DNA of 64,000 bases from the NCBI GenBank assembly GCA_964412965.1, contig CAYPQU010000003.1:2788-66787 (forward strand). Direction: 5' to 3'. A program made the position numbers and the translations under genes. The stretch comes from an uncultured Candidatus Saccharibacteria bacterium (GTDB lineage: Bacteria; Patescibacteriota; Minisyncoccia; Phycocordibacterales; UBA9973). Every line of letters starts with the position of its first letter. Position 1 is the stretch's first letter. Under the pieces are notes generated by a model. That model did no database searches. It saw nothing but the letters and a program-made list of their open reading frames with translations, and had not been told where the DNA came from. Shown here piece by piece: positions 6,105 through 64,000 of this stretch.

Positions 6105-7094
6105 TTATTTATTATTTTTCAAGAAATTTTTAATGATTCTTTCAACTTCTTTCGAATTTTTTGTTTCCATTAATTTAATTCTCAATTCTTTAGCCCCATC
6201 AAAACCGTTCACATAAGCTTTGTAGTGTTTTTTCATAACATCAAAATTCTTAACCTCGCCCAATTCCTTCTCGAAAAGTTTAGTGTGTTCCACAAGAGCA
6301 TTAAGTTTTTCTTCAGTACTTATCTCCTCTTTCCCTTCGTCAAAGAACCAAGGATTACCGAAAATCCCCCTTCCGATCATTATCCCGTCACAACCATATT
6401 TTTCTATCTTTTCTTTTGCATCATTAATGTCTTTAACATCACCATTTCCAATAAGCAGAATATCTTTCTTGCTTGCTTTGATCATTTTCTTAATTTTTGG
6501 AATATATTTCCAATTTGCAGGAACTTTTGACATTTCTTTTTTGGTTCGAAGATGAATAGTTAGTGCTGATATATTTTCTTTAATCAACTCTCCGATCCAG
6601 TTATCTATTTCTTCTTTATTGAAACCGATTCTAGTTTTGACAGAAACAGGAATATTTTTGCCAGCAATTTTTACTCCTTCTTGTGCAGCTCGTATAATTT
6701 TTCGAGCTAGTTCTGGATTTTTTATCAAAGCAGAACCCGCACCTTGAGCCACAACTGATTTATCTGGACAACCCATATTTATATCAATACCATCAAAATC
6801 AAGGCTCGCTATGTATTGGCAAGCTTTTTTCATGTTTTCTGGATTAGCTCCAAATACCTGAGCAACGATAGGTCTTTCCCCTTCCTTATATCTTAAAATG
6901 TGTGAAAGCTTTTTTCTAGCATGTTTATCACAAAGACCATCAGCTGCCACAAATTCAGTCCAAAAAATTACATTATTTTTATTTTCTCTATTCTTGCTAT
7001 ATTTAGAAATCATCGTTCGAAAAGCGATGTCTGTTACATCCGACATTGGAGCAAGGCAGAAGAATGGTTTGTTTAAATTATTCCAAAAATTCAT
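6105..7094 (-). CDS. dus: tRNA-dihydrouridine synthase
   Basis: CLAPMSDVTDIAFR N-terminal motif and a Dus-family TIM barrel. Confidence 0.85.
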   Translation of the reverse strand: MNFWNNLNKPFFCLAPMSDVTDIAFRTMISKYSKNRENKNNVIFWTEFVAADGLCDKHARKKLSHILRYKEGERPIVAQVFGANPENMKKACQYIASLDFDGIDINMGCPDKSVVAQGAGSALIKNPELARKIIRAAQEGVKIAGKNIPVSVKTRIGFNKEEIDNWIGELIKENISALTIHLRTKKEMSKVPANWKYIPKIKKMIKASKKDILLIGNGDVKDINDAKEKIEKYGCDGIMIGRGIFGNPWFFDEGKEEISTEEKLNALVEHTKLFEKELGEVKNFDVMKKHYKAYVNGFDGAKELRIKLMETKNSKEVERIIKNFLKNNK

Positions 7095-55215: not shown

Positions 55216-55893
55216 TTATAGCATGTACTTGCCATCTTTGTCGTCTCTTACAACACGACCATTCTCCAAAGTAATAACTCTTTTCTTAACTTGATCTATA
55301 ACCGTCCTATTGTGAGTTGTCAAAATAACAGTTGTCCCTAATTCATTTATTTTCTTCAGAAGATTAACTACGTCGTTTGTGTTAATTGGGTCAAGGTTAC
55401 CTGTAGGCTCGTCGGCTATAATAATATCTGGTTGGGTAATTATCGCACGAGCAATAGCTAGTCTTTGTTTTTCACCCCCAGATAGTTGATGAGGGAAATT
55501 ATTTTCTTTTCCTTTTAATCCCACTAACTCTAAGACTCTAGGAACATCATCTCTTATCTCTTCTTCGTCTTTATCAACAGCCTCCATCGCAAAAGCTATA
55601 TTTTCATAGACTGTCTTATTTGGTAAAAGCCTGAAATCCTGAAAAACAGTTCCTATTTTCCTTCTTAATTTAGTCAATTCTTTAGTTGTTAATTTGGTGA
55701 TATCTGTTGAATCAAAAAATATTGAACCTTGAGACGGATCTTCTTCTGCTAATATTAATTTGGTTAAAGTTGTCTTACCTGCCCCTGAGTGACCCACGAT
55801 AGACACAAATTCTCCTTGAGAGATAGTAATATTAATGTCCTCTAGGCAGACATTATCTGAATATTTTTTTGTTACATTATTAAAATAAATCAT
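55216..55893 (-). CDS. ftsE: Cell division ATP-binding protein FtsE
   Basis: ABC ATPase: Walker [10 protein letters not shown], signature LSGGEKQR. Confidence 0.9.
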
Positions 55894-56084
55894 TGTCTAT
55901 CTAAGAGTATCACAAATCCTTCTCGGCTTCAATCCTGTTAGAAAAAAGTCGCCCCGAGGTGACTGAAGCACTCAATTGCTATTGAGGGCGTTTTCTAACG
56001 GGATCAATAAATTCATCTAAATATCTTTAAGGTCAAAAATTCCAAATTACAAAACCTAAAAAATCACAAAACTCAATCTACAAG

Positions 56085-57089
56085 CTACCTTGTAAAACTG
56101 CGGGAGGAACGAAAGCCCAAAGGGTCGTACTGAAACGAAAAACCACAGACATTGACAACGCGCTTGCCACTGCTGGGATCCAAAGTCGAAAAGACAAGAC
56201 GGGAACCGCTTTTGGTAGAGAGCCATATCCAGCCATCTTTATCTAAGTGTTTGCCTGTTTCTTCAAAGTATTTCTTGGATAGTATGAGATATTCTTCAAG
56301 GGATAGAGTGGTATCTAGAGGGACATCTTGACCTTTGATGTTTAGTGTTTGAGCTAGTTCTGGGTGGTCTTTCAAGTTTTGAGTGTTGTGAGTGAGGATG
56401 AGACGGATTTTGTCTTGATTTTGACTTTGGGCTTTCTTGAAGCTTCCACCTTCTTTAAAGTTATCACTTTCCCAATACTTTGCGTCCTTCATCTTCTTAG
56501 CTAGGTCTGGTAAGTCGGTGGTAGGAGGGATTAAGATGATTTCATTGAATCCGTGAGCTTCTATCTCTTTCTCGATTTCATCTAGATTATTGTTCCATAT
56601 CTCTTTGATTTGTTCTTCAAAGTCATCTGCAACTTCTAGATTGTGTTTCTTGTAGAAAGATATGTATTCGTTTAGCTTTTGTTCAATGTTTAGAGTGATT
56701 TGTTCGGTTTTTTCTACCTTACCGTCCTTGTTGATGAAGGTGTAGATGGAGGAGATTTTTTCGGTGTGAGAAGGTAGAGGTTCACCACTATCTAGTCTTT
56801 CTTTCATCTTCTCTACTCTATCCATCATACTGTTTAGCTTTTCTTGCATAGTTACCTTTCTTTCTTCTCCTTTTCCTTCTTTTTCATCTTCTTGATCGTT
56901 AAATAATCCTTGTGATATGGATTCTTTATATTCTTCTATGGCTTCTTGTATTGGGAGTTTAAGTGATTGTATTTTACCTTCTAATATACTCCTCAATTCT
57001 TCTTGAGATTTCTCTGGTTTTGGAACACTTTTTTCTTGGGTTTGAGTGTTCTCTTTTTTGCTTTTGAATAGGTTGGTGAGAGATTCCAT
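56085..57089 (-). CDS. Hypervariable-C-terminus paralog 1 (~330-aa family; candidate DGR-type variable protein with a CLec/FGE-like C-terminal end)
   Basis: N-terminal 40 aa nearly identical to the paralogs at 57112 and 60240. The C-terminus ...WLSTKSGSRLVFS...LGFRSSRSFTR is GC-rich and divergent. Confidence 0.7.
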   Translation of the reverse strand: MESLTNLFKSKKENTQTQEKSVPKPEKSQEELRSILEGKIQSLKLPIQEAIEEYKESISQGLFNDQEDEKEGKGEERKVTMQEKLNSMMDRVEKMKERLDSGEPLPSHTEKISSIYTFINKDGKVEKTEQITLNIEQKLNEYISFYKKHNLEVADDFEEQIKEIWNNNLDEIEKEIEAHGFNEIILIPPTTDLPDLAKKMKDAKYWESDNFKEGGSFKKAQSQNQDKIRLILTHNTQNLKDHPELAQTLNIKGQDVPLDTTLSLEEYLILSKKYFEETGKHLDKDGWIWLSTKSGSRLVFSTLDPSSGKRVVNVCGFSFQYDPLGFRSSRSFTR

Positions 57090-57111
57090 GATAAAAGGTT
57101 ATAAGTACAAG

Positions 57112-58104
57112 CTACTTCATATAACTACAGGAGGAACGGAACCCCAAACCGCCACCCTGAGCCGAAAAGCCACGGGCACCGACAAGGCGCTTGCGGTCGC
57201 CGAGATCCCAATACGAATAGACGAGACGAGCACCAGATTTGGTTGCAAGCCAAGTATAGTTATCTTCATCTAGGTGGTGACCTGTTTCTTCAAAATATTT
57301 CTTGGAAAGGATAAGGTATTCTTCGAGAGAAAGAGTCTTGTCTAGGGGAACGTCTTGTCCTTTGGTATTTAGAGTTTTAGCTAGTTCGGGGTGATCTTTC
57401 AGATTTTGGACTTTGTGAGTGAGAATTATGCGAGTCTTGTCTTGATTTTGACTTTGAGCTTTCTTAAAACTTCCACCCTGTTTGAAATTACCACTTTCCC
57501 AGTATTTTGTTTCTTTCATTTTCTCTGCTAAATCTGATAGATCTGTGGTAGGGGGAATTAGCAGGATTTCATTGAATCCGTGTCCCTCTATCTGTTTCAG
57601 TATGTCGTCTGTGTTTTCTTCCCAAATATCTCTGATATCTTCTTCAAAATTATCGGGTATTTCTACACCATGCGAATCGTAAAAAGAAATGTATTCGTTT
57701 AACTTTTGTTCGATATTTAATGTGATTTGTTCGACTTTCCTTGTGTCGGGGAAAGTGTAGGAGGATTCGATTGAATCGGTAAGTGAGGGTAGTATTTCAT
57801 TGCTGTCTAGCTTGGCTTTCATCTTCTCTACTCTATCTAGCATACTATTGATCTTTTCTTGCATAACTGTCTTTCTTTCTTCACCTTTTCCTTCTTCTTC
57901 ATCTTCTTGATCGTTAAATAATCCTTGTGATATGGATTCTTTGTATTCTTCTATGGCTTCTTGTATTGGGAGTTTAAATGATTGTATTTTACCTTCTAAT
58001 ATACTCCTCAATTCTTCTTGAGATTTCTCTGGTTTTGGAACACTTTTTTCTTGGGTTTGAGTGTTCTCTTTTTTGCTTTTGAATAGGTTGGTGAGGGATT
58101 CCAT
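57112..58104 (-). CDS. Hypervariable-C-terminus paralog 2
   Basis: Same family. Its 3' ~170 nt are identical to the 3' end of the AAA-fusion gene (61255-61420). Confidence 0.7.
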   Translation of the reverse strand: MESLTNLFKSKKENTQTQEKSVPKPEKSQEELRSILEGKIQSFKLPIQEAIEEYKESISQGLFNDQEDEEEGKGEERKTVMQEKINSMLDRVEKMKAKLDSNEILPSLTDSIESSYTFPDTRKVEQITLNIEQKLNEYISFYDSHGVEIPDNFEEDIRDIWEENTDDILKQIEGHGFNEILLIPPTTDLSDLAEKMKETKYWESGNFKQGGSFKKAQSQNQDKTRIILTHKVQNLKDHPELAKTLNTKGQDVPLDKTLSLEEYLILSKKYFEETGHHLDEDNYTWLATKSGARLVYSYWDLGDRKRLVGARGFSAQGGGLGFRSSCSYMK

Positions 58105-58124
58105 GGGGAAATTATAGCATAATA

Positions 58125-60209
58125 TTATATATCTTTTAAGTGTTCTTTTAATAGTTCTGACAACACTAATGGTAAATTCTTTACATTTTCAACAACCAGA
58201 GCGTTTGGAGAATAAGTCGAAATGACAGCACCCCCTGAGTTGGTAATACCTAATCCGACGACAACAATCCCTTTATTTCGAAGAACTTTCAAGATAGACT
58301 GAACCCGAGAGGGATTGTCACTTTCTCCATCGGTCATAACTATAACAATTTTCTTCAACATTCCTTCTTCTATTTTCTTTTCTACTTCTGGGTCTAGTTT
58401 GTCTTCAATACTTTCAAGACAAAAAAAGTCCGTAGTGGAGCCATTGATATCATAAAGTTTATTTAAGATATTTATCCTTTCTGCCTCACCGAGATCTTTT
58501 GACATAATTTTAATTGGTTTTTTGTCTTCGTTGTTGCCTGCAAAAGAATATATCTCTGATTTTACTTCGAGTGGTTTATCCATATTCATCTTCTCCTCTT
58601 CTGTCATTTCCGCAAATTCTTTCAAGGTTTCCATCATAAGAACTGCGGACTTCCTTTGCTCTTCAGCATTTTCTCCCCCCATAGATCCCGAGCGATCACA
58701 GACAAGAGTTATCTCAACTTCACCAAATCTATCTCCTTTTTTTTCTTTTAACTCTATGTCTTCCCAAACTCGAGGTTCCAAATTACCAGACTTAACTTCC
58801 GCGACAAGCTGACTAGGATCTACCAAATAATCCCCTTCCTCTGTTGGATATTTGGGGACAAAAGACTTTTGGGTTCTTTTAGAAATTATCCGAAAGAAGA
58901 GATTTTTCATTTCTTCCAGCACTTCTACGCCGGTATTCTCATTCACCATACTGCGAACCTGCTCTGCAACCTTTCGATAATTTTGCAAACTTTCTTTAGT
59001 AACTCCTATCTTTTCAGCATAATCTTCATCTGCCTTGTCTTTGTTTTCTTTACAGTTTTCTTTGTTTTTCTTCCATTCTTCAAATGCTTTCTCTATATCT
59101 TCTATCGAAATAGCTTCAGGGAATTTCTTCTCGACCTCACTATACTCTTTTTCAAAAATTTTATTTGGATCTTTTTCTTCTTCTCTATCACCACCTTTTC
59201 CTTTCTTTTCTTTTTGTTTTTTGTCTTTACCGTTTTTTGATTCCCCTTCTCCTTCTTCTTCTACACTTTCATTTCCATCATTTTTATCTTCTCTGTCTTG
59301 TTCTTCTGATTTTTGATCATCTTTCTCTCCTCCGTTGTTTTCTTCTTTTGAATCTTGAGAATCTTTTTTATTTCCCCCTTCTTTTTCTTCTAGTTCACCT
59401 TCTCCGCTCTGCCCTTTACCCTCAGAATTTTCTTGACCGCTATCTTCTTCTTTTTTATTATTCCTATCTTCTATATCTTTCTCCAAAAGACTTTGCACTC
59501 TTGGCCAAATATATTTGTCTTGCAATTCCCATCTCAATGACATTGGAGTTTCAGGATTTGTCATGATATCCATCAGACCCTTCACTTTTTCTATTTCTAC
59601 AATCTTCTGTCTTACATCATTTCCCACTATGCACTTTTCATTTTTTACTCTTGCTTCCCGTAGAAGAGCCTCACAAATTTGAATATGTCTTGGTTGTGAA
59701 GTAAAATCTATTTCTTTAAACAAGTTTTCTCTATACATCTTGTCTTCTATTTCTTTCATGCCTTCATTCGTTCTCGATATCACAGATCTATTTTCACGAA
59801 TATCGGCAATGCAATTATCCATTAACCCAAAAGCTTTAGATTTTTTATTTTTTTCTAAATAATTCTTAAAAGATTTTTCCCCATTTTTTTCTTTTAATAC
59901 TTGGATTTTCTCTGAGAAATGTTCCACCTCGTGCAAGGTTGCAAAAATCGTTTTCTCATCAGAAAACCCTGCTTCTTTATAAAACATTGGATTCACATAA
60001 ATAGTATTGTTTTCAAGGTTAAAAGCAAAAGTATTCAAACCGGCAGGAGAAGGTTCTATCTTTATTTTTCCTTTTGAGTAGTGTTCAAAAAAATCTCTGT
60101 TTTTCTCCACAAAGTCAAAAGCTTCGTTATTTACACCTTCACCCTCAAAAGATCTAGGTTTCGCAACCTTTTCTTCTTTTTTTATTTCTTTTAATCTAAA
60201 TTTTTCCAT
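58125..60209 (-). CDS. von Willebrand factor A (vWA) domain protein with an acidic low-complexity linker
   Basis: C-terminal vWA with MIDAS motif DRSGSMGG and a later TDG motif (VMTDGESDN). The middle is E/K/D-rich. Confidence 0.75.
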   Translation of the reverse strand: MEKFRLKEIKKEEKVAKPRSFEGEGVNNEAFDFVEKNRDFFEHYSKGKIKIEPSPAGLNTFAFNLENNTIYVNPMFYKEAGFSDEKTIFATLHEVEHFSEKIQVLKEKNGEKSFKNYLEKNKKSKAFGLMDNCIADIRENRSVISRTNEGMKEIEDKMYRENLFKEIDFTSQPRHIQICEALLREARVKNEKCIVGNDVRQKIVEIEKVKGLMDIMTNPETPMSLRWELQDKYIWPRVQSLLEKDIEDRNNKKEEDSGQENSEGKGQSGEGELEEKEGGNKKDSQDSKEENNGGEKDDQKSEEQDREDKNDGNESVEEEGEGESKNGKDKKQKEKKGKGGDREEEKDPNKIFEKEYSEVEKKFPEAISIEDIEKAFEEWKKNKENCKENKDKADEDYAEKIGVTKESLQNYRKVAEQVRSMVNENTGVEVLEEMKNLFFRIISKRTQKSFVPKYPTEEGDYLVDPSQLVAEVKSGNLEPRVWEDIELKEKKGDRFGEVEITLVCDRSGSMGGENAEEQRKSAVLMMETLKEFAEMTEEEKMNMDKPLEVKSEIYSFAGNNEDKKPIKIMSKDLGEAERINILNKLYDINGSTTDFFCLESIEDKLDPEVEKKIEEGMLKKIVIVMTDGESDNPSRVQSILKVLRNKGIVVVGLGITNSGGAVISTYSPNALVVENVKNLPLVLSELLKEHLKDI

Positions 60210-60239
60210 GTAATCTGTTGTATCAAAAAAAGCTACAAG

Positions 60240-61232
60240 CTACTTCATATAACTGCGGGAGGAACGAAAGCCCAAACGGCCGCTCCGATACGAAAAAGCA
60301 TCGGCATCGACACAGCGCCGGTCACGGCCGGGATCCCAATCCGAACAGACAAGACGGGAACCGCTTTCTGTCGAGAGCCAAGTCGCACCGTATTCATCTA
60401 AGTGCTTGCCTGTTTCTTCAAAGTATTTCTTGCATAGTATGAGGTATTCTTCAAGAGACAGAGTGATGTCTAAGGGGACATCTTCTCCTTTGATGTTTAA
60501 GGTTTGAGCTATTTCGGGATGGTCTTTCAAGTTTTGAGTGTTGTGAGTGAGGATGAGACGTACTTTGTCTTGATTTTGACTTTGAGCTTTTTCGAAACTT
60601 CCACCTTCTTTGAAATTATCACCTTCCCAATACTTTGCCTCCTTCATCTTCTCTGCTAAATCTGATAGATCTGTGGTTGGTGGAATTAGCAGGATTTCAT
60701 TGAATCCATGTTCTGTCATCTGCTTTTTAATGTCATTGATATTTGCTTCCCAGATATCTTTGATGTCTTCTTCGAAATTATCGGGTATTTCTACACCATG
60801 TGAATCATAGAAAGAAATGTATTCGTTTAACTTTTGTTCGATATTTAATGTGATTTGTTCGACTTTCCTTGTGTCGGGGAAAGTGTAGGAGGATTCGATT
60901 GATTCGGTAAGTGAGGGTAGTATTTCATTGCTGTCTAGCTTGGTTTTCATTTTTTCTACTTTGTCTAACATGCTATTTAACTTCTTTTGCATAGACATCT
61001 TTCTTTCTTCTCCTTTTCCTTCTTCTTCGTCTTCTTGATCATCAAACTTACCATCTTCTAATGATGTTTGATATTCTTTGATTAATTCTTCGATTGGAGT
61101 TTTAAGTGATTGTATTTTACCTTCTAATATACCCCTCAGTTCTTCTTGAGATTTCTCTGGTTTTGGAACACTTTTTTCTTGAGTGTTCGTGTTCTCTTTT
61201 TTGCTTTTGAATAGGTTGGTGAGAGATTCCAT
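60240..61232 (-). CDS. Hypervariable-C-terminus paralog 3
   Basis: Same family. C-terminus ...WLSTESGSRLVCSDWDPGRDRRCVDADAFSYRSGRLGFRSSRSYMK. Confidence 0.7.
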   Translation of the reverse strand: MESLTNLFKSKKENTNTQEKSVPKPEKSQEELRGILEGKIQSLKTPIEELIKEYQTSLEDGKFDDQEDEEEGKGEERKMSMQKKLNSMLDKVEKMKTKLDSNEILPSLTESIESSYTFPDTRKVEQITLNIEQKLNEYISFYDSHGVEIPDNFEEDIKDIWEANINDIKKQMTEHGFNEILLIPPTTDLSDLAEKMKEAKYWEGDNFKEGGSFEKAQSQNQDKVRLILTHNTQNLKDHPEIAQTLNIKGEDVPLDITLSLEEYLILCKKYFEETGKHLDEYGATWLSTESGSRLVCSDWDPGRDRRCVDADAFSYRSGRLGFRSSRSYMK

Positions 61233-61254
61233 GATAAAAGGTTATAAGTACAAG

Positions 61255-63774
61255 CTACTTCATATAACTACAGGAGGAACGGAACCCCAAACCGCCACCC
61301 TGAGCCGAAAAGCCACGGGCACCGACAAGGCGCTTGCGGTCGCCGAGATCCCAATACGAATAGACGAGACGAGCACCAGATTTGGTTGCAAGCCAAGTAT
61401 AGTTATCTTCATCTAGGTGGTGACCTGTTTCTTCAAAATATTTCTTGGAAAGGATAAGGTATTCTTCGAGGGATAGTGTTTTATCTAAGGGTACATCTTG
61501 TCCTTTGATATTTAGAGTTTTGGTAAGTTCGGGGTGATCTTTTAGATTTTGGACTTTGTGGGTGAGTACAATACGGACTTTGTCTTGGTTTTGACTTTGA
61601 GCTTTTTCGAAACTTCCACCTTCTTCGAAATTATCACCTTCCCAATACTTTGCCTCCTTCATCTTCTCTTTCATCTTCTCTGCTAAATCAGGCAAATCTG
61701 TGGTTGGTGGAATTAGCAGGATTTCATTGAATCCATATTCCTCTATTTGCTTCTCCAGGTCATCAATATTTGCTTCCCAGATATCTTTGATATCTTCTTC
61801 GAAATTATCGGGTATTTCTACACCATGCGAATCGTAAAAAGAAATGTATTCGTTTAACTTTTGTTCGATATTTAATGTGATTTGTTCGGTTTTCTCAATT
61901 TGGCCGTCTTGGTTGGTAAAAGTATATGTGGTTTTGATTTCTTCTGTTTGTGATTTTTTATCCTTCCCATATATTTTTTCAAATCTCCTACCTAGTCCAT
62001 TCAAAAATTCATCTTTATTTGAATCTATCCCTTCTTTAAGCAAGACTTCTGCTTTTAGTTTTAATAACTCTTCTCTTTTATTAAATGGATCTAGCTCTGC
62101 TACTTCTTTTAGGGTTAAGTGCTTTATATCCCCTGATTTATCCCTCAACTCTTCGGTGGCATTTTCTCCTCGAAGAGATTTAATAGCATTAAATCTGAAA
62201 ATATCTTCCGGTAGGTTTAATTCTTCAGCAGAAAGAGTTGTAAGAAAACCTTTTGACGCTAGAATCTTCGCAGCCAAAATCCTATCTTCTTTTGAATATT
62301 CGTCAAAAGTAAGGGCAGTTTTTAATCTTTGGTCTAAAAATTCAGAGAAAGATACTGTTTCTTTCTTTGTTTGCTTTTCTATGGTCCAAGAAGAAAAGAT
62401 GGCTTCCACTGTTCCTTGTGTCATTACAAATTTTTTAAGAGAATGATATTTTCCACTAGCATCCATAGCCCCTACATTCTGTGCTAGATTTTTGTCTGTC
62501 TCGTTTGTGTATGATTCTTGAATTTCAGACATAGCCTTACACAAATTTGGTAGTGTTGTATTTAAATCATAAAAAGACATATCTATGGATCCATCTTTAT
62601 TCATAAGTCTGGCAAGCATTATGTCATATGCTTCATCTGAAGGATTATATTCTATTTTAACATTGTTTTGTTCAAATTCACGAGTTATCTCTGGAGGTAA
62701 TTCTTGCCTTTCTGGATTTTTTTCTGATTTTAAGTTTGCTGTAAAAATCATTTGAAAACCTGGTTTTATGTCTACTATTCCATTGCCTACAATATTCACT
62801 TTGTCTCCTACTTTGGCATTAAATACCCCTTTAATGAAAACCATCTGTTCTTTTGGTAATGCAGTAAATTCATCAAAGATAACGACTTTACCCTCAGTCA
62901 TTGCTTTAGCAAGAGGCCCATATATCTCCACTGTTTCAATGGCTCCACTCTCTCCGCTTGGTCTTAACCCTGTTTTTCCCCAAACATTTGCTTCTCTTGT
63001 CTGCGGGTTACAAAAAACCATCTCGGGCGTTTTACCAGTAAAGTGTTCAGAGGCAAATCTAGCCAAAGAGGTCTTTCCTGTTCCCGTTGGTCCGTGCAAT
63101 AACATTGGTTTGCTTGTAAGCATTCTGTCTCCGATGGCATCCAAATCTTTTTCCACTTCTGGGGTGATGCAGATGTGCCCAGGCTGGCTTAAATTTTTCT
63201 TGTATTCTACCAACTTCGCTTGTTGTAATGTATTTTGATCAACACCTTCTAAAAAGTTTTCTTTTTCAATAATTTCATTTTTTACTGAGTCTAATATTTT
63301 TTCATTTCTTTCTTTTGTTTCTTTAGAACATTTGGGATCTAATATTTCAAAAATCTTATGAATCCTATAATCTTTGAGTTTAGAAATTTCTTCCAGTGAT
63401 TCTTGAACTTTGCTTATTTGAGGATTTTCTTTTCTTATAGAAGAATAATCAATTTTAGAAAGATTATTTAAAAGTTCTTTTTCGTACTCTTTTTTTTGAT
63501 TTTTTAAAATTTTCTTTGATTCAGAAAAACCACCATTTTCCTCTATACTAAAAGAGGATGCTTTGTCTTCTAAGTCAACCAAATCATCTTTATAATGCTT
63601 TTCGTAAATTTTTTTCTTAAAAGCGTCGAGATCTGACCCCCCGCCATTTTTCGTAATTCCAAATTCGTTTTTAATAGTTTTCTTTAATTCTAATCGATCC
63701 TCAAAAACCTTATGAAAATTAAGATTTTTTTCACCCTCGCCTTCTTTTGGGTTAAAATTAGGTTTGTTTTCCAT
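61255..63774 (-). CDS. MoxR/AAA_5-type AAA+ ATPase fused at its C-terminus to a fourth copy of the hypervariable-paralog domain
   Basis: Walker A LLHGPTGTGKTS and Walker B VVIFDEF at about residues 225-300. Residues ~520-839 align with the 330-aa paralogs, including the variable end. Confidence 0.75.
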   Translation of the reverse strand: MENKPNFNPKEGEGEKNLNFHKVFEDRLELKKTIKNEFGITKNGGGSDLDAFKKKIYEKHYKDDLVDLEDKASSFSIEENGGFSESKKILKNQKKEYEKELLNNLSKIDYSSIRKENPQISKVQESLEEISKLKDYRIHKIFEILDPKCSKETKERNEKILDSVKNEIIEKENFLEGVDQNTLQQAKLVEYKKNLSQPGHICITPEVEKDLDAIGDRMLTSKPMLLHGPTGTGKTSLARFASEHFTGKTPEMVFCNPQTREANVWGKTGLRPSGESGAIETVEIYGPLAKAMTEGKVVIFDEFTALPKEQMVFIKGVFNAKVGDKVNIVGNGIVDIKPGFQMIFTANLKSEKNPERQELPPEITREFEQNNVKIEYNPSDEAYDIMLARLMNKDGSIDMSFYDLNTTLPNLCKAMSEIQESYTNETDKNLAQNVGAMDASGKYHSLKKFVMTQGTVEAIFSSWTIEKQTKKETVSFSEFLDQRLKTALTFDEYSKEDRILAAKILASKGFLTTLSAEELNLPEDIFRFNAIKSLRGENATEELRDKSGDIKHLTLKEVAELDPFNKREELLKLKAEVLLKEGIDSNKDEFLNGLGRRFEKIYGKDKKSQTEEIKTTYTFTNQDGQIEKTEQITLNIEQKLNEYISFYDSHGVEIPDNFEEDIKDIWEANIDDLEKQIEEYGFNEILLIPPTTDLPDLAEKMKEKMKEAKYWEGDNFEEGGSFEKAQSQNQDKVRIVLTHKVQNLKDHPELTKTLNIKGQDVPLDKTLSLEEYLILSKKYFEETGHHLDEDNYTWLATKSGARLVYSYWDLGDRKRLVGARGFSAQGGGLGFRSSCSYMK

Positions 63775-63807
63775 ATGTATTACAATTGTAAAACAAAAAC
63801 TAGATTT

Positions 63808-64000
63808 TTACAAATCCTTCTCGGCTTCAATAAAATTATCCAAATTTCCATCCTCTAGAACAGAATCAACATTGCTAGTTTCTACCAGAGTGCGGTGATC
63901 TTTTATCATTTTATATGGGTGTAAGACATAAGACCGAATTTGATTTCCCCACTCTATTTCTGTGGTTTTTGATATTGAAAAACCATCTTTTTCTCTTTTT
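63808..64000 (-). CDS. Partial CDS (C-terminal ~64 aa, ends ...NFIEAEKDL*); function unknown
   Basis: Open frame to the window edge. Its last 22 nt, including the stop, are duplicated at 55912-55933. Confidence 0.4.

What the first reader, a model, noticed from the sequence alone, without database searches (positions are those of the whole stretch)
58125..63774. MoxR/AAA_5-like ATPase and vWA protein embedded in the hypervariable-paralog array, with the ATPase fused to a variable domain
AAA+ (MoxR/AAA_5-class) ATPases paired with vWA-MIDAS proteins form a widespread but functionally obscure two-component chaperone-like system. Here the ATPase (Walker A GPTGTGKT, Walker B IFDEF) carries a C-terminal copy of the same hypervariable domain found in three flanking free-standing paralogs. 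The vWA partner (DRSGS MIDAS motif, long acidic linker) sits between them. All five genes are co-directional with 20-30-nt gaps and are probably one operon. I am not aware of a described architecture that couples a ligand-binding variable CLec-like domain to a MoxR ATPase.
Basis: partly seen in the sequence, partly recalled or inferred. Interest (0 to 1): 0.7.

Follow-up and report, generated by a model that had tools for sequence, protein, structure and literature searches.

The report
RT-less DGR target cassette, MoxR-like ATPase/vWA
The five genes are the target part of a retroelement-driven hypermutation system (DGR) that is common in ultrasmall Patescibacteria and already described in outline. 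Here the reverse transcriptase and template are missing from the locus.

Summary
Five co-directional minus-strand genes, 20-30 nt apart, encode an AAA_5 ATPase (839 aa), a vWA protein (694 aa) and three 330-334-aa paralogs. The last ~230 residues of the ATPase are homologous to the paralogs.

The hypervariable stretch is a DGR variable repeat (VR) on an FGE/C-type-lectin-like fold. In 19 of 25 related Patescibacteria loci with enough flank, an Avd gene, a reverse transcriptase (RT) and a template repeat (TR) lie beside the ATPase. TR-VR mismatches fall almost only at TR adenines.

In the window, variation sits on those same columns (25/26 against 21/71, p about 1e-9). It also differs from the nearest strain in that way. 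Yet the 64-kb window holds no RT, Avd or TR, and neither do its closest relatives at this locus.

The ATPase is NorQ/MoxR-like, not McrB-like. The vWA domain resembles the NorD and midasin MIDAS domains. Its N-terminal domain carries an invariant HExxHxxE motif.

The novelty claim fails. AAA-ATPase-CLec fusions are reported as the commonest CPR DGR target, and DGR-linked MoxR-vWA systems are published. The function is still unknown; I favour a cytoplasmic diversified sensor coupled to a MoxR-vWA remodelling machine. I rate it a new member of a known kind, of moderate interest.

The parts
61255..63774 (-). AAA_5 (MoxR/NorQ-like) ATPase of 839 aa, fused to a C-terminal DGR-target module
   Evidence: ORF. 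Pfam AAA_5 E=2.6e-12. Closest PDB sequence is NorQ, E=1.2e-4. More than 300 homologues of about 800 aa in Patescibacteria.
62713..63105 (-). AAA_5 core, residues 224-354. Walker A is at 63070-63093, Walker B at 62866-62880, and the sensor-1 region FTANLKSE at 62722-62745.
   Evidence: GPTGTGKTS, D301/E302 and N347 are invariant in 26 homologues.
61258..61956 (-). C-terminal module of the ATPase (residues ~607-839), homologous to the free paralogs
   Evidence: phmmer match to paralog residues 106-330, E=1e-108; alignment A1.
61270..61371 (-). Variable repeat (VR) of the ATPase. It may extend about 45 nt further 5'.
   Evidence: It is 100% identical to the VR at 57127-57228.
60240..61232 (-). 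Free-standing VR paralog of 330 aa: an N-terminal helical hairpin followed by an FGE/CLec-like domain
60255..60356 (-). VR of paralog 60240
   Evidence: Against its orthologue in L078 it differs at 16/26 TR-adenine columns and 1/71 other columns, p=1e-10.
58125..60209 (-). vWA protein of 694 aa: an N-terminal HExxH domain, an acidic disordered linker, a helical region and a vWA/MIDAS domain
59436..60134 (-). N-terminal domain of the vWA protein, with invariant H93, E94, H97 and E100 (HEVEH at 59919-59933). Putative zincin-like metallopeptidase.
   Evidence: The residues are invariant in 39 homologues. No Pfam hit. A weak, non-significant match aligns the HExxH with that of PDB chain MJ1213 (4qhf), E=0.16; I recall that protein as the minigluzincin selecase. 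Only 282 cluster representatives exist.
59184..59435 (-). Acidic/lysine-rich disordered linker, vWA protein residues 259-342
   Evidence: pLDDT below 50; sequence.
58236..58712 (-). vWA domain, with MIDAS DRSGS at 58683-58697
   Evidence: D505, S507, S509, T592 and D627 are invariant.
57112..58104 (-). Free-standing VR paralog of 330 aa. It is a chimeric extra copy with its VR at 57127-57228.
   Evidence: Mosaic identity to the other copies. Absent from the closest relative L078.
56085..57089 (-). Free-standing VR paralog of 334 aa, with its VR at 56100-56201
   Evidence: The VR is nearly unchanged against its L078 orthologue: 2/26 TR-adenine columns and 3/71 other columns differ.

Best explanation
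The block 56085-63774 is the target side of a Patescibacteria-type diversity-generating retroelement (DGR).

What is shown. In most relatives the gene order is ATPase(VR)-[paralog(VR)]-TR-Avd(reverse strand)-RT-vWA-[paralog(VR)]. In the related cassettes examined, one TR rewrites the C-terminal FGE/C-type-lectin-like VR of the ATPase, and of any free paralogs present, by adenine-specific mutagenic retrohoming. In the window and its nearest relatives the RT-Avd-TR module is absent from the locus. In the window, four VRs (three distinct sequences) still carry the adenine-mutagenesis pattern. Two of the three VR pairs compared have been re-diversified since the split from the closest known strains.

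What is inferred about the source of diversification. It was, or still is, supplied by a DGR elsewhere in the genome (about 55%) or by a module that was lost recently (about 35%). The four copies also exchange segments by recombination.

What is inferred about function. All five proteins lack signal peptides and transmembrane segments. I therefore read them as a cytoplasmic machine. The variable lectin-like domains, six on an ATPase hexamer plus the free paralogs, would bind a changing ligand. The NorQ/MoxR-like AAA+ ring would engage the NorD/midasin-like vWA domain of the partner. ATP hydrolysis would pull on that partner's long acidic linker and so control its N-terminal HExxH (zincin-like) domain. 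The likeliest biological role is recognition of invading or host-derived molecules, that is, conflict or defence sensing. The ligand, the protease activity and the role are not shown.
For: Reference DGR in a related cassette:
- L002/L003 carry RVT_1 and bAvd genes between the first paralog and the vWA gene.
- The RT has the LGNITSQ and YNDD motifs.
- TR 6386-6500 differs from its three VRs at adenines in 14/15, 8/9 and 19/21 mismatches.

Survey of 72 species-level genome loci:
- The same gene order recurs across many Paceibacteria/Parcubacteria-type lineages of Patescibacteria.
- In nearly every RT-bearing locus with an intact ATPase 3' end, a TR just upstream of Avd matches the ATPase C-terminus with adenine-specific mismatches.
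- Of 25 loci with at least 5 kb downstream, 19 have an RT and 21 have a vWA gene.

Window:
- VR variation falls on columns where nine related TRs carry A (25/26 against 21/71, p=1.3e-9), all in codon positions 1 and 2.
- Orthologue comparisons: win_60240 against L078, 16/26 against 1/71 (p=1e-10); win_ATPase against L076, 16/26 against 8/71 (p=2e-6).
- No RT, Avd or TR is present. phmmer on all window ORFs, tblastn at E<=1 and the [ILV]GxxxSQ motif search, and blastn with a VR all found nothing.
- The closest relatives L076, L077 and L078 also lack an RT at the locus.

Proteins:
- ATPase: NorQ is the best PDB sequence match.
- vWA domain: midasin MIDAS and NorD are the top structural hits. The NorQ-NorD mechanism of a vWA finger in the AAA+ pore with linker remodelling is described in PMC13036017.
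- HExxHxxE and MIDAS residues are invariant.
- No hydrophobic segment is present; the maximum Kyte-Doolittle 19-residue mean is 1.44.
- Mosaic recombination tracts link the four copies.
Against: - No RT or TR was found for this genome. About 5 kb of the 69-kb contig and the rest of the genome were not available, so present-day activity is unproven.
- One VR (56085) is essentially frozen against its orthologue (2/26 against 3/71). The ATPase VR and the 57112 VR are identical. Both facts fit an inactive system.
- The ATPase-type VRs differ from the other two at 10-13 of 71 non-adenine columns. This is not expected if a single TR had recently rewritten all of them.
- A close relative (L066) holds only a decayed ATPase pseudogene.
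- The metallopeptidase assignment rests on a motif, the secondary-structure order and a non-significant match (E=0.16).
- No effector, ligand or phenotype is known for any member of the family.
Confidence: 0.8

Rival explanations
1. Relic cassette. The DGR module has been lost from the genome. The VRs are frozen products of past mutagenesis that now evolve only by point mutation and by recombination or gene conversion among the four copies.
For: - No RT, Avd or TR in 64 kb, and none at the locus in L076 and L078.
- The VR of paralog 56085 is nearly identical to its L078 orthologue.
- Two VRs are identical, and mosaic conversion tracts link the copies.
- Non-adenine differences separate the two VR groups.
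- Decay is seen elsewhere: the L066 pseudogene and the split RTs in L013 and L042.
Against: - Two orthologous VR pairs differ at 16/26 TR-adenine columns but only at 1/71 and 8/71 other columns. Mutagenic homing therefore occurred after lineages that both lack a local RT had split.
- All five ORFs are intact, and the catalytic, MIDAS and HExxH residues are conserved.
Confidence: 0.35
2. Ordinary MoxR-vWA maturation chaperone, like NorQ/NorD, CbbQ/CbbO or CobS/CobT. It would insert a metal or remodel a specific enzyme, and the paralogs would be adaptors or substrates unrelated to hypermutation.
For: - NorQ is the best PDB sequence match.
- NorD vWA is among the top structural hits.
- phrog_249, a CobS-like family annotated as porphyrin biosynthesis, matches at E=1.4e-11.
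Against: - No client enzyme genes lie next to the cassette; the neighbours are a release-factor gene (likely prfB), ftsE, ftsX and pyrG.
- The ATPase itself carries the VR in the related loci where its 3' end could be examined.
- In 19 of 25 related loci an RT lies beside it.
- The similarity to NorQ is limited to the AAA core (E=1.2e-4).
Confidence: 0.05
3. Surface adhesin system. The variable lectin-like proteins would be exported to bind host cells. This is the usual reading of DGR targets in CPR episymbionts.
For: Reviews and surveys assume attachment roles for CPR DGR targets (PMC10221324; PMC7495880).
Against: - None of the five proteins has a signal peptide or transmembrane segment.
- The main target is fused to a cytoplasmic-type AAA+ ATPase.
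- Roux et al. 2021 note that CPR clade-2 targets typically lack transmembrane or other recognisable domains (PMC8144416).
Confidence: 0.07
4. McrB-like or other AAA_5 restriction or defence NTPase, in a restriction-system context.
For: Only local P-loop matches to IetA, mad8 and TRIP13 models in PADLOC (E from 1e-5 to 2e-2, 24-85 residues).
Against: - There is no McrC-like or nuclease gene.
- The partner is a vWA/MIDAS protein.
- The best matches are NorQ, GvpN and CobS-like.
- The motifs are Walker B DE and sensor-1 N. From memory, McrB instead has GTP-specific motifs; this was not tested here.
Confidence: 0.02

Closest known systems
CPR/Patescibacteria DGRs whose target is an AAA ATPase fused to a C-terminal variable domain. 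Sources: Paul et al. 2017 as cited in PMC10907252; the 'UVR4'/Midasin-domain targets and B3 architecture of Wu et al. 2018, PMC5758913; DGR clade 2 of Roux et al. 2021, PMC8144416.
   Same: - Same phylum.
- Same fusion of an AAA_5/midasin-like ATPase with a C-terminal VR.
- Relatives show the CPR-typical layout of target, TR, reverse-oriented avd and RT, with multiple targets per TR.
   Different: - The window and its closest relatives have no RT, Avd or TR at the locus.
- The window has an extra chimeric paralog.
DGR-associated MoxR-vWA ternary conflict systems (VMAP systems) of cyanobacteria, gammaproteobacteria and other multicellular bacteria. Sources: Kaur et al. 2020, PMC7159879; Dore et al. 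2024, PMC10907252.
   Same: A MoxR-class AAA+ ATPase, a vWA protein and a DGR-diversified FGE/CLec domain sit in one gene neighbourhood. The targets are predicted to be largely cytoplasmic. The proposed logic is a variable sensor coupled to an ATPase transducer.
   Different: - In those systems the variable domain is usually fused to the vWA protein; here it is fused to the ATPase and to free paralogs.
- No VMAP, TIR, caspase/trypsin or EAD effector domains were detected here.
- Pfam bpMoxR matches only weakly (E=0.007, below its cut-off).
- Dore et al. place most CPR RTs in a clade separate from these systems.
NorQ/NorD, and by analogy CbbQ/CbbO, RavA/ViaA and the midasin AAA ring with its MIDAS domain
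   Same: - The AAA_5 core is most similar to NorQ.
- The vWA domain is most similar to midasin MIDAS and NorD.
- The partner protein has an N-domain, long linker and vWA layout like NorD, whose linker is remodelled by NorQ (PMC13036017).
   Different: There is no metalloenzyme client. The ATPase has about 220 extra N-terminal residues and a roughly 480-residue C-terminal extension ending in a hypervariable domain. The partner's N-domain carries HExxH.
Structurally characterised DGR variable proteins: TvpA (2y3c), Mtd (1yu0) and TaqVP (5vf4)
   Same: An FGE-sulfatase/C-type-lectin-like fold carries the VR at the extreme C-terminus, ending in a ...GFR... motif. Variable codons are of the AAY type.

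Membership tests
Diversity-generating retroelement (complete DGR) | A DGR-type reverse transcriptase gene (RVT_1 with the [I/L]GxxxSQ motif) at or near the locus | tested here: not met
   No phmmer or tblastn match to the RT of L002 and no [ILV]GxxxSQ motif in the 64-kb window. An RT is present in 19 of 25 related loci.
Diversity-generating retroelement (complete DGR) | A template repeat (TR) homologous to the VR, with mismatches at TR adenines | tested here: not met
   Only the four VR copies match each other in the window. A pattern scan of JGI metagenome contigs gave one chance hit. The rest of the genome could not be searched.
DGR target gene (variable protein) | A C-terminal VR whose variable positions correspond to TR adenines, mainly in codon positions 1 and 2 | tested here: met
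   Tested against nine TRs of related cassettes: 25/26 adenine columns are variable against 21/71 others, p=1.3e-9. All adenine columns lie in codon positions 1 or 2. Orthologue pairs give 16/26 against 1/71, and 16/26 against 8/71.
DGR target gene (variable protein) | The VR is carried on a C-type-lectin/FGE-sulfatase-like (or Ig) fold | tested here: met
DGR target gene (variable protein) | Orthologues in other genomes are demonstrably paired with a TR, RT and Avd | tested here: met
   L002 and more than 30 further loci.
MoxR-class AAA+ ATPase (Pfam AAA_5; NorQ/CbbQ/midasin group) | An AAA_5 domain with Walker A, Walker B (DE), sensor-1 and conserved arginines | tested here: met
   AAA_5 E=2.6e-12, above the cut-off. 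GPTGTGKTS, D301/E302, N347, R356 and R365 are invariant in 26 homologues. NorQ is the best PDB match.
MoxR-class AAA+ ATPase (Pfam AAA_5; NorQ/CbbQ/midasin group) | The helix-2 insert and pre-sensor-1 hairpin that define the clade, and a hexameric ring | not tested
MoxR-class AAA+ ATPase (Pfam AAA_5; NorQ/CbbQ/midasin group) | A partner vWA/MIDAS protein encoded nearby | tested here: met
MoxR-vWA ternary conflict systems (VMAP, iSTAND, FtsH and beta-propeller types; Kaur et al. 2020) | A third signature component (VMAP, inactive STAND, FtsH or a beta-propeller) and the system-specific MoxR N-terminal motifs | tested here: not met
   No such domains appear in Pfam, NCBIfam or PADLOC scans of the five proteins. 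bpMoxR matches at E=0.007 with 15.8 bits, below the cut-off of 27.
McrBC-type restriction | A McrB-family GTPase with a McrC nuclease partner | tested here: not met
   No McrB or McrC model matched. The neighbours are the vWA gene and the VR paralogs.
Zincin metallopeptidase (N-domain of the vWA protein) | HExxH on an active-site helix preceded by a beta-sheet, a third metal ligand, and a match to a peptidase family | tested here: inconclusive

The most novel reading that the evidence does not exclude
The cassette is a live, RT-less 'client' of a DGR located elsewhere in the genome. Together with its relatives it would be a Patescibacteria-wide cytoplasmic recognition system. Hypermutated lectin-like domains on a MoxR-like ATPase ring and on free paralogs would sense changing intracellular ligands such as phage or host proteins. 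They would then trigger, through a NorD-like vWA adaptor, a previously unrecognised zincin-like protease domain. That would amount to an adaptive-like immune or conflict module in organisms that mostly lack CRISPR.
Probability: 0.2. Interest if true: 0.75.

Novelty: new member of a known kind. Interest (0 to 1): 0.4.

Why it matters
DGR-diversified AAA-ATPase fusions are probably the commonest DGR targets in Patescibacteria, yet nobody knows what they bind or do.

This locus and the survey around it add four points:
- The target ATPase is NorQ/MoxR-like and is almost always accompanied by a NorD/midasin-like vWA protein.
- That partner has an invariant HExxHxxE N-terminal domain that matches no database family.
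- All components look cytoplasmic. This argues against the usual surface-adhesin reading and for a sensor-transducer-effector arrangement like the DGR-linked MoxR-vWA conflict systems of multicellular bacteria.
- Cassettes can persist without a local RT and TR while still showing post-divergence adenine mutagenesis. This bears on how often DGRs act in trans and how target arrays decay or shuffle by recombination.

None of this changes the category. The finding is a good entry point to an open functional question rather than a new kind of system.

Tried and rejected
- Search for an RT in the window with a YxDD regular expression. It found nothing, but the pattern would have missed the family's YNDD motif. 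I replaced it with phmmer on all ORFs, tblastn at E<=1 and the [ILV]GxxxSQ motif search, all negative.
- Search for a TR in the window with blastn, word size 7. Only the four VR copies matched.
- Attempts to reach the rest of the contig or genome. Exact-protein look-ups of the ATPase and of P0001 were not on record. The vWA protein gave only an identical 2.5-kb Logan contig. The cluster look-up showed a 69,061-bp NCBI contig without name or accession.
- Scan of JGI metagenome contigs with the conserved VR/TR 3' end TTTGGGSTTYCGTTCCTCCYG. The single hit was a chance match in a succinate-dehydrogenase gene.
- Classification of the HExxH domain by Pfam on the window protein and on 10 remote family members found with a whole-library profile search. 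No family matched.
- Test for phage carriage. IMG/VR holds only 25-31%-identical generic AAA_5 proteins, and the PHROG hits are generic CobS-like or clamp-loader families.
- Search for a hairpin downstream of the VRs and for promoters or terminators. Nothing was above chance.
- The McrB/restriction reading and the NorQD-like metal-chaperone reading were rejected, as set out under the rival explanations.
- Paul et al. 2017 (PMC5436926) could not be read. Its content is cited only through Dore et al. 2024 and Wu et al. 2018.
Full report
**1. What is in the sequence**

Between a peptide-chain release-factor gene (its end is at about 63808; likely prfB) and ftsE (55216-55893), the minus strand carries five ORFs:
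- an 839-aa protein at 61255-63774
- a 330-aa protein at 60240-61232
- a 694-aa protein at 58125-60209
- a 330-aa protein at 57112-58104
- a 334-aa protein at 56085-57089

The gaps between them are 22, 30, 20 and 22 nt.

Pfam places AAA_5 on residues 224-354 of the first protein (E=2.6e-12). It places VWA on residues 500-658 of the third (E=7.4e-9).

The three short proteins are paralogs. The last ~230 residues of the ATPase are homologous to them (61-73% identity; phmmer E=1e-108). Promoter- and terminator-like sites are not above chance, so the operon is inferred from spacing alone.

The cassette is larger than the stated coordinates: it runs from 56085 to 63774.

**2. The hypervariable stretch is a DGR variable repeat**

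The four copies differ most in a 102-nt stretch just before the stop codon. The differences fall almost only in codon positions 1 and 2, and the stretch ends in ...LGFRSS. That is the look of a DGR variable repeat (VR).

A homologue of the paralogs lies on a 550-kb contig (L002, identical to L003). There the order is RF, FtsE, FtsX, AAA_5 protein (825 aa), 333-aa paralog, bAvd on the opposite strand, RVT_1 reverse transcriptase, VWA protein (682 aa), 336-aa paralog.
- The RT carries the DGR-typical LGNITSQ and YNDD motifs.
- The small protein matches Pfam bAvd (E=2.1e-15, above its cut-off). It also matches the NCBIfam DGR Avd model (E=7.8e-20, 71 bits, just under that model's 80-bit cut-off).
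- A 115-nt template repeat (TR, 6386-6500) lies just upstream of avd.
- The TR differs from the C-terminal repeats of the ATPase and the two paralogs at adenines in 14/15, 8/9 and 19/21 mismatches.

**3. How general is this?**

The ATPase has more than 300 homologues of about 800 aa, and the vWA protein has a similar number. Those that carry a name are from Patescibacteria.

A scan of one genome per species returned 72 loci. I annotated them with phmmer, using the window proteins plus the L002 RT and Avd. The recurring order is ATPase, an optional paralog, TR, Avd on the reverse strand, RT, vWA and an optional paralog. In some lineages the vWA gene lies upstream of the ATPase instead.
- In nearly every RT-bearing locus with an intact ATPase 3' end, a TR next to avd matches the ATPase C-terminus with adenine-specific mismatches, for example 18/18, 23/23 and 15/15.
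- Of 25 loci with at least 5 kb downstream of the ATPase, 19 have the RT and 21 have the vWA gene.
- Thirteen contigs end within 2 nt of the ATPase ORF end. This is what happens when assemblies break at a hypervariable or repeated segment.
- No close relative is present on IMG/VR viral contigs.

**4. The window's own state**

The 64-kb window has no RT and no Avd. This was tested by phmmer on every ORF of at least 60 aa, and by tblastn at E<=1 and the [ILV]GxxxSQ motif search. It also has no fifth, TR-like copy of the repeat. Where relatives hold TR-avd-RT, the window has a 30-nt gap between paralog 60240 and the vWA gene.

The closest relatives look the same at this locus:
- L076: ATPase N-terminal region 97% identical in protein, 91% nucleotide identity over the aligned 3.3 kb.
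- L078: vWA protein 92% identical.
- L077: ATPase N-terminal region 85% identical in protein.

I aligned the window VRs and these relatives' VRs to nine TRs from related cassettes. Twenty-five of the 26 columns that are adenine in the TRs vary among the window-lineage VRs, against 21 of 71 non-adenine columns (p=1.3e-9). All adenine columns lie in codon positions 1 or 2.

Orthologue comparisons are the more telling test:

| Pair | TR-adenine columns that differ | Other columns that differ | p |
|---|---|---|---|
| Paralog 60240 against L078 | 16/26 | 1/71 | 1e-10 |
| ATPase VR against L076 | 16/26 | 8/71 | 2e-6 |
| Paralog 56085 against L078 | 2/26 | 3/71 | 0.41 |

So mutagenic homing acted on at least two VRs after the split of lineages that both lack a local RT. 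That favours a DGR acting from elsewhere in the genome. Several observations fit a system that has gone quiet:
- one VR is frozen against its orthologue
- two VRs are identical (ATPase and paralog 57112; 100% identity over the last ~250 nt plus the 3' flank)
- the two VR groups differ at 10-13 of 71 non-adenine columns
- a relative (L066) holds only a decayed ATPase pseudogene

I could not reach the rest of the genome, so this remains open.

The four copies are also mosaics of near-identical tracts, which indicates recombination or gene conversion. Paralog 57112 is an extra chimeric copy that L078 lacks.

**5. The proteins**

*ATPase.* Walker A, Walker B (DE), the sensor-1 asparagine and two arginines are invariant in 26 homologues. 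The only solved sequences matched are NorQ (E=1.2e-4 and 3.1e-4). NCBIfam and PHROGs give weak GvpN and CobS-like matches. PADLOC gives only P-loop-local matches. Nothing points to McrB.

*vWA protein.* The model shows four parts:
- a helical N-domain, in which three short strands precede a helix carrying HEVEH
- a linker of about 85 residues, acidic and lysine-rich, with pLDDT below 50
- a helical region
- the vWA domain

H93, E94, H97 and E100, and the MIDAS residues D505, S507, S509, T592 and D627, are invariant in 39 homologues. The N-domain has no Pfam match, even in remote members found by a whole-library profile search. A profile search of the PDB gives a non-significant match to PDB chain MJ1213 (E=0.16), which aligns the two HExxH motifs. 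From memory that protein is the minigluzincin selecase.

None of the five proteins has a hydrophobic segment that could be a signal peptide or membrane span.

**6. How it most likely works**

*Shown.* The family is a DGR target. The ATPase and vWA protein are a MoxR-class pair by sequence and structure similarity. The components are soluble.

*Inferred.* The lectin-like VR domains would bind a variable ligand in the cytoplasm, both on the ATPase (six per ring if it is hexameric) and on the free paralogs. By analogy with NorQ-NorD, the ring would engage the vWA domain and pull on the partner's linker. In that complex a vWA finger enters the AAA+ pore and the linker is remodelled (PMC13036017). 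This would control the HExxH domain or hand a bound client to it.

This is the same sensor-transducer-effector logic that Dore et al. 2024 proposed for DGR-linked MoxR-vWA systems. They also suggested it in passing for CPR AAA-CLec targets. The ligand, the protease activity and the biological role (defence, or interaction with the host cell) are unknown.

**7. Comparison with what is known, and novelty**

- Dore et al. 2024, citing Paul et al. [quoted passage not shown]
- Wu et al. 2018 matched CPR 'UVR4' targets to the Midasin AAA domain. [quoted passage not shown]
- Kaur et al. 2020 described MoxR-vWA ternary conflict systems. [quoted passage not shown]

What this analysis adds:
- the constant NorD/midasin-like vWA partner with an unclassified HExxHxxE domain in the CPR cassettes
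- the fold assignment of the VR module
- the cytoplasmic prediction
- the RT-less but recently diversified state of this lineage, with recombination among the VR copies

The window does not meet the definition of a complete DGR, because no RT and no TR were found. It does not meet the definition of the Kaur ternary systems either, because no VMAP, iSTAND, FtsH or beta-propeller component was found. It does meet the tests for a DGR target and for an AAA_5/vWA pair.

**8. Verdict**

It is explained by a known mechanism (DGR) and belongs to a known, widespread but functionally unexplored CPR cassette type. I rate it a new member of a known kind, with interest 0.4.

The most novel reading still open is a live trans-served cytoplasmic recognition system with a new zincin-like effector. 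I give it a probability of about 0.2.

Noticed in passing
window 57112-58104, compared with 56085-57089, 60240-61232 and 61255-61956: Paralog 57112 is a chimera. Its N-terminal part is 98-100% identical to paralog 56085 and its middle part 96-97% identical to paralog 60240. Its last ~250 nt plus 20 nt of 3' flank are 100% identical to the ATPase 3' end. All four copies share mosaic near-identical tracts, which indicates gene conversion or recombination. The closest relative L078 has only one paralog between the vWA gene and ftsE.
   Followed up: partly
L012, L015, L016, L017, L020, L022, L023, L029, L033, L035, L054, L057, L061 (contig ends): Thirteen of 67 public genome contigs end within 2 nt of the ATPase ORF end or inside it. 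Assemblies appear to break systematically at the VR or paralog repeat, so the cassette is probably under-represented and fragmented in MAGs.
   Followed up: no
L066:9798-11556: A Portnoybacteria MAG holds only a frameshifted and internally deleted remnant of the ATPase/VR gene (best tblastn segment 83% identical to the window protein). The remnant lies between an isoleucyl-tRNA-synthetase-like gene (my reading of the translation) and an unidentified ORF. There is no vWA gene, RT or paralog.
   Followed up: partly
L013:13181-14167; L042:14200-15355; L028:10069-10587: In several related cassettes the RT is split by an in-frame stop or a frameshift, or is truncated, although the TR-VR pairs still show clean adenine-specific mismatches (for example 18/18 in L013). 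This suggests recent inactivation of the RT.
   Followed up: no
L034:1694-16378; L063:147-10146: L034 carries two DGR cassettes in tandem, each with its own ATPase, TR, Avd and RT. L063 carries an exact duplication of the ATPase + TR + Avd segment.
   Followed up: no
window 55216-64000, compared with L002:1-11011: The cassette occupies different slots in the same housekeeping neighbourhood. The order is RF-cassette-ftsE-ftsX-pyrG in the window, and also in L076 and L078 taken together. It is RF-ftsE-ftsX-cassette in L002. In other relatives the vWA gene lies upstream instead of downstream of the ATPase.
   Followed up: no
L077:4311-4811: In the relative with 85% ATPase identity, a NYN-domain (predicted RNase) gene sits between the ATPase and the first paralog.
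   Followed up: no
window 61372-61416, 60357-60401 and 56202-56246: Three or four codons about 45 nt upstream of the core VR also differ between copies (DNY / YGA / DGW before the conserved W). The TR of this lineage may therefore be longer than the 113-116 nt seen in the nearest RT-bearing relatives. TRs of 123-132 nt occur in more distant ones.
   Followed up: no
window 56076-56084, 57103-57111, 60231-60239 and 61246-61254: The 9 nt after the stop codon (CTTGTA plus 3 nt) are conserved in all four copies beyond the coding sequence. This could be part of the homing-recognition (IMH-like) element. No hairpin was found downstream.
   Followed up: partly
L001 (Logan SRR11845629 contig, 2484 nt) = window 58066-60549: A contig 100% identical to the window was assembled independently from SRA run SRR11845629. 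Both its ends fall inside paralog genes. This run is the place to look for the missing RT and TR and for VR microdiversity.
   Followed up: no
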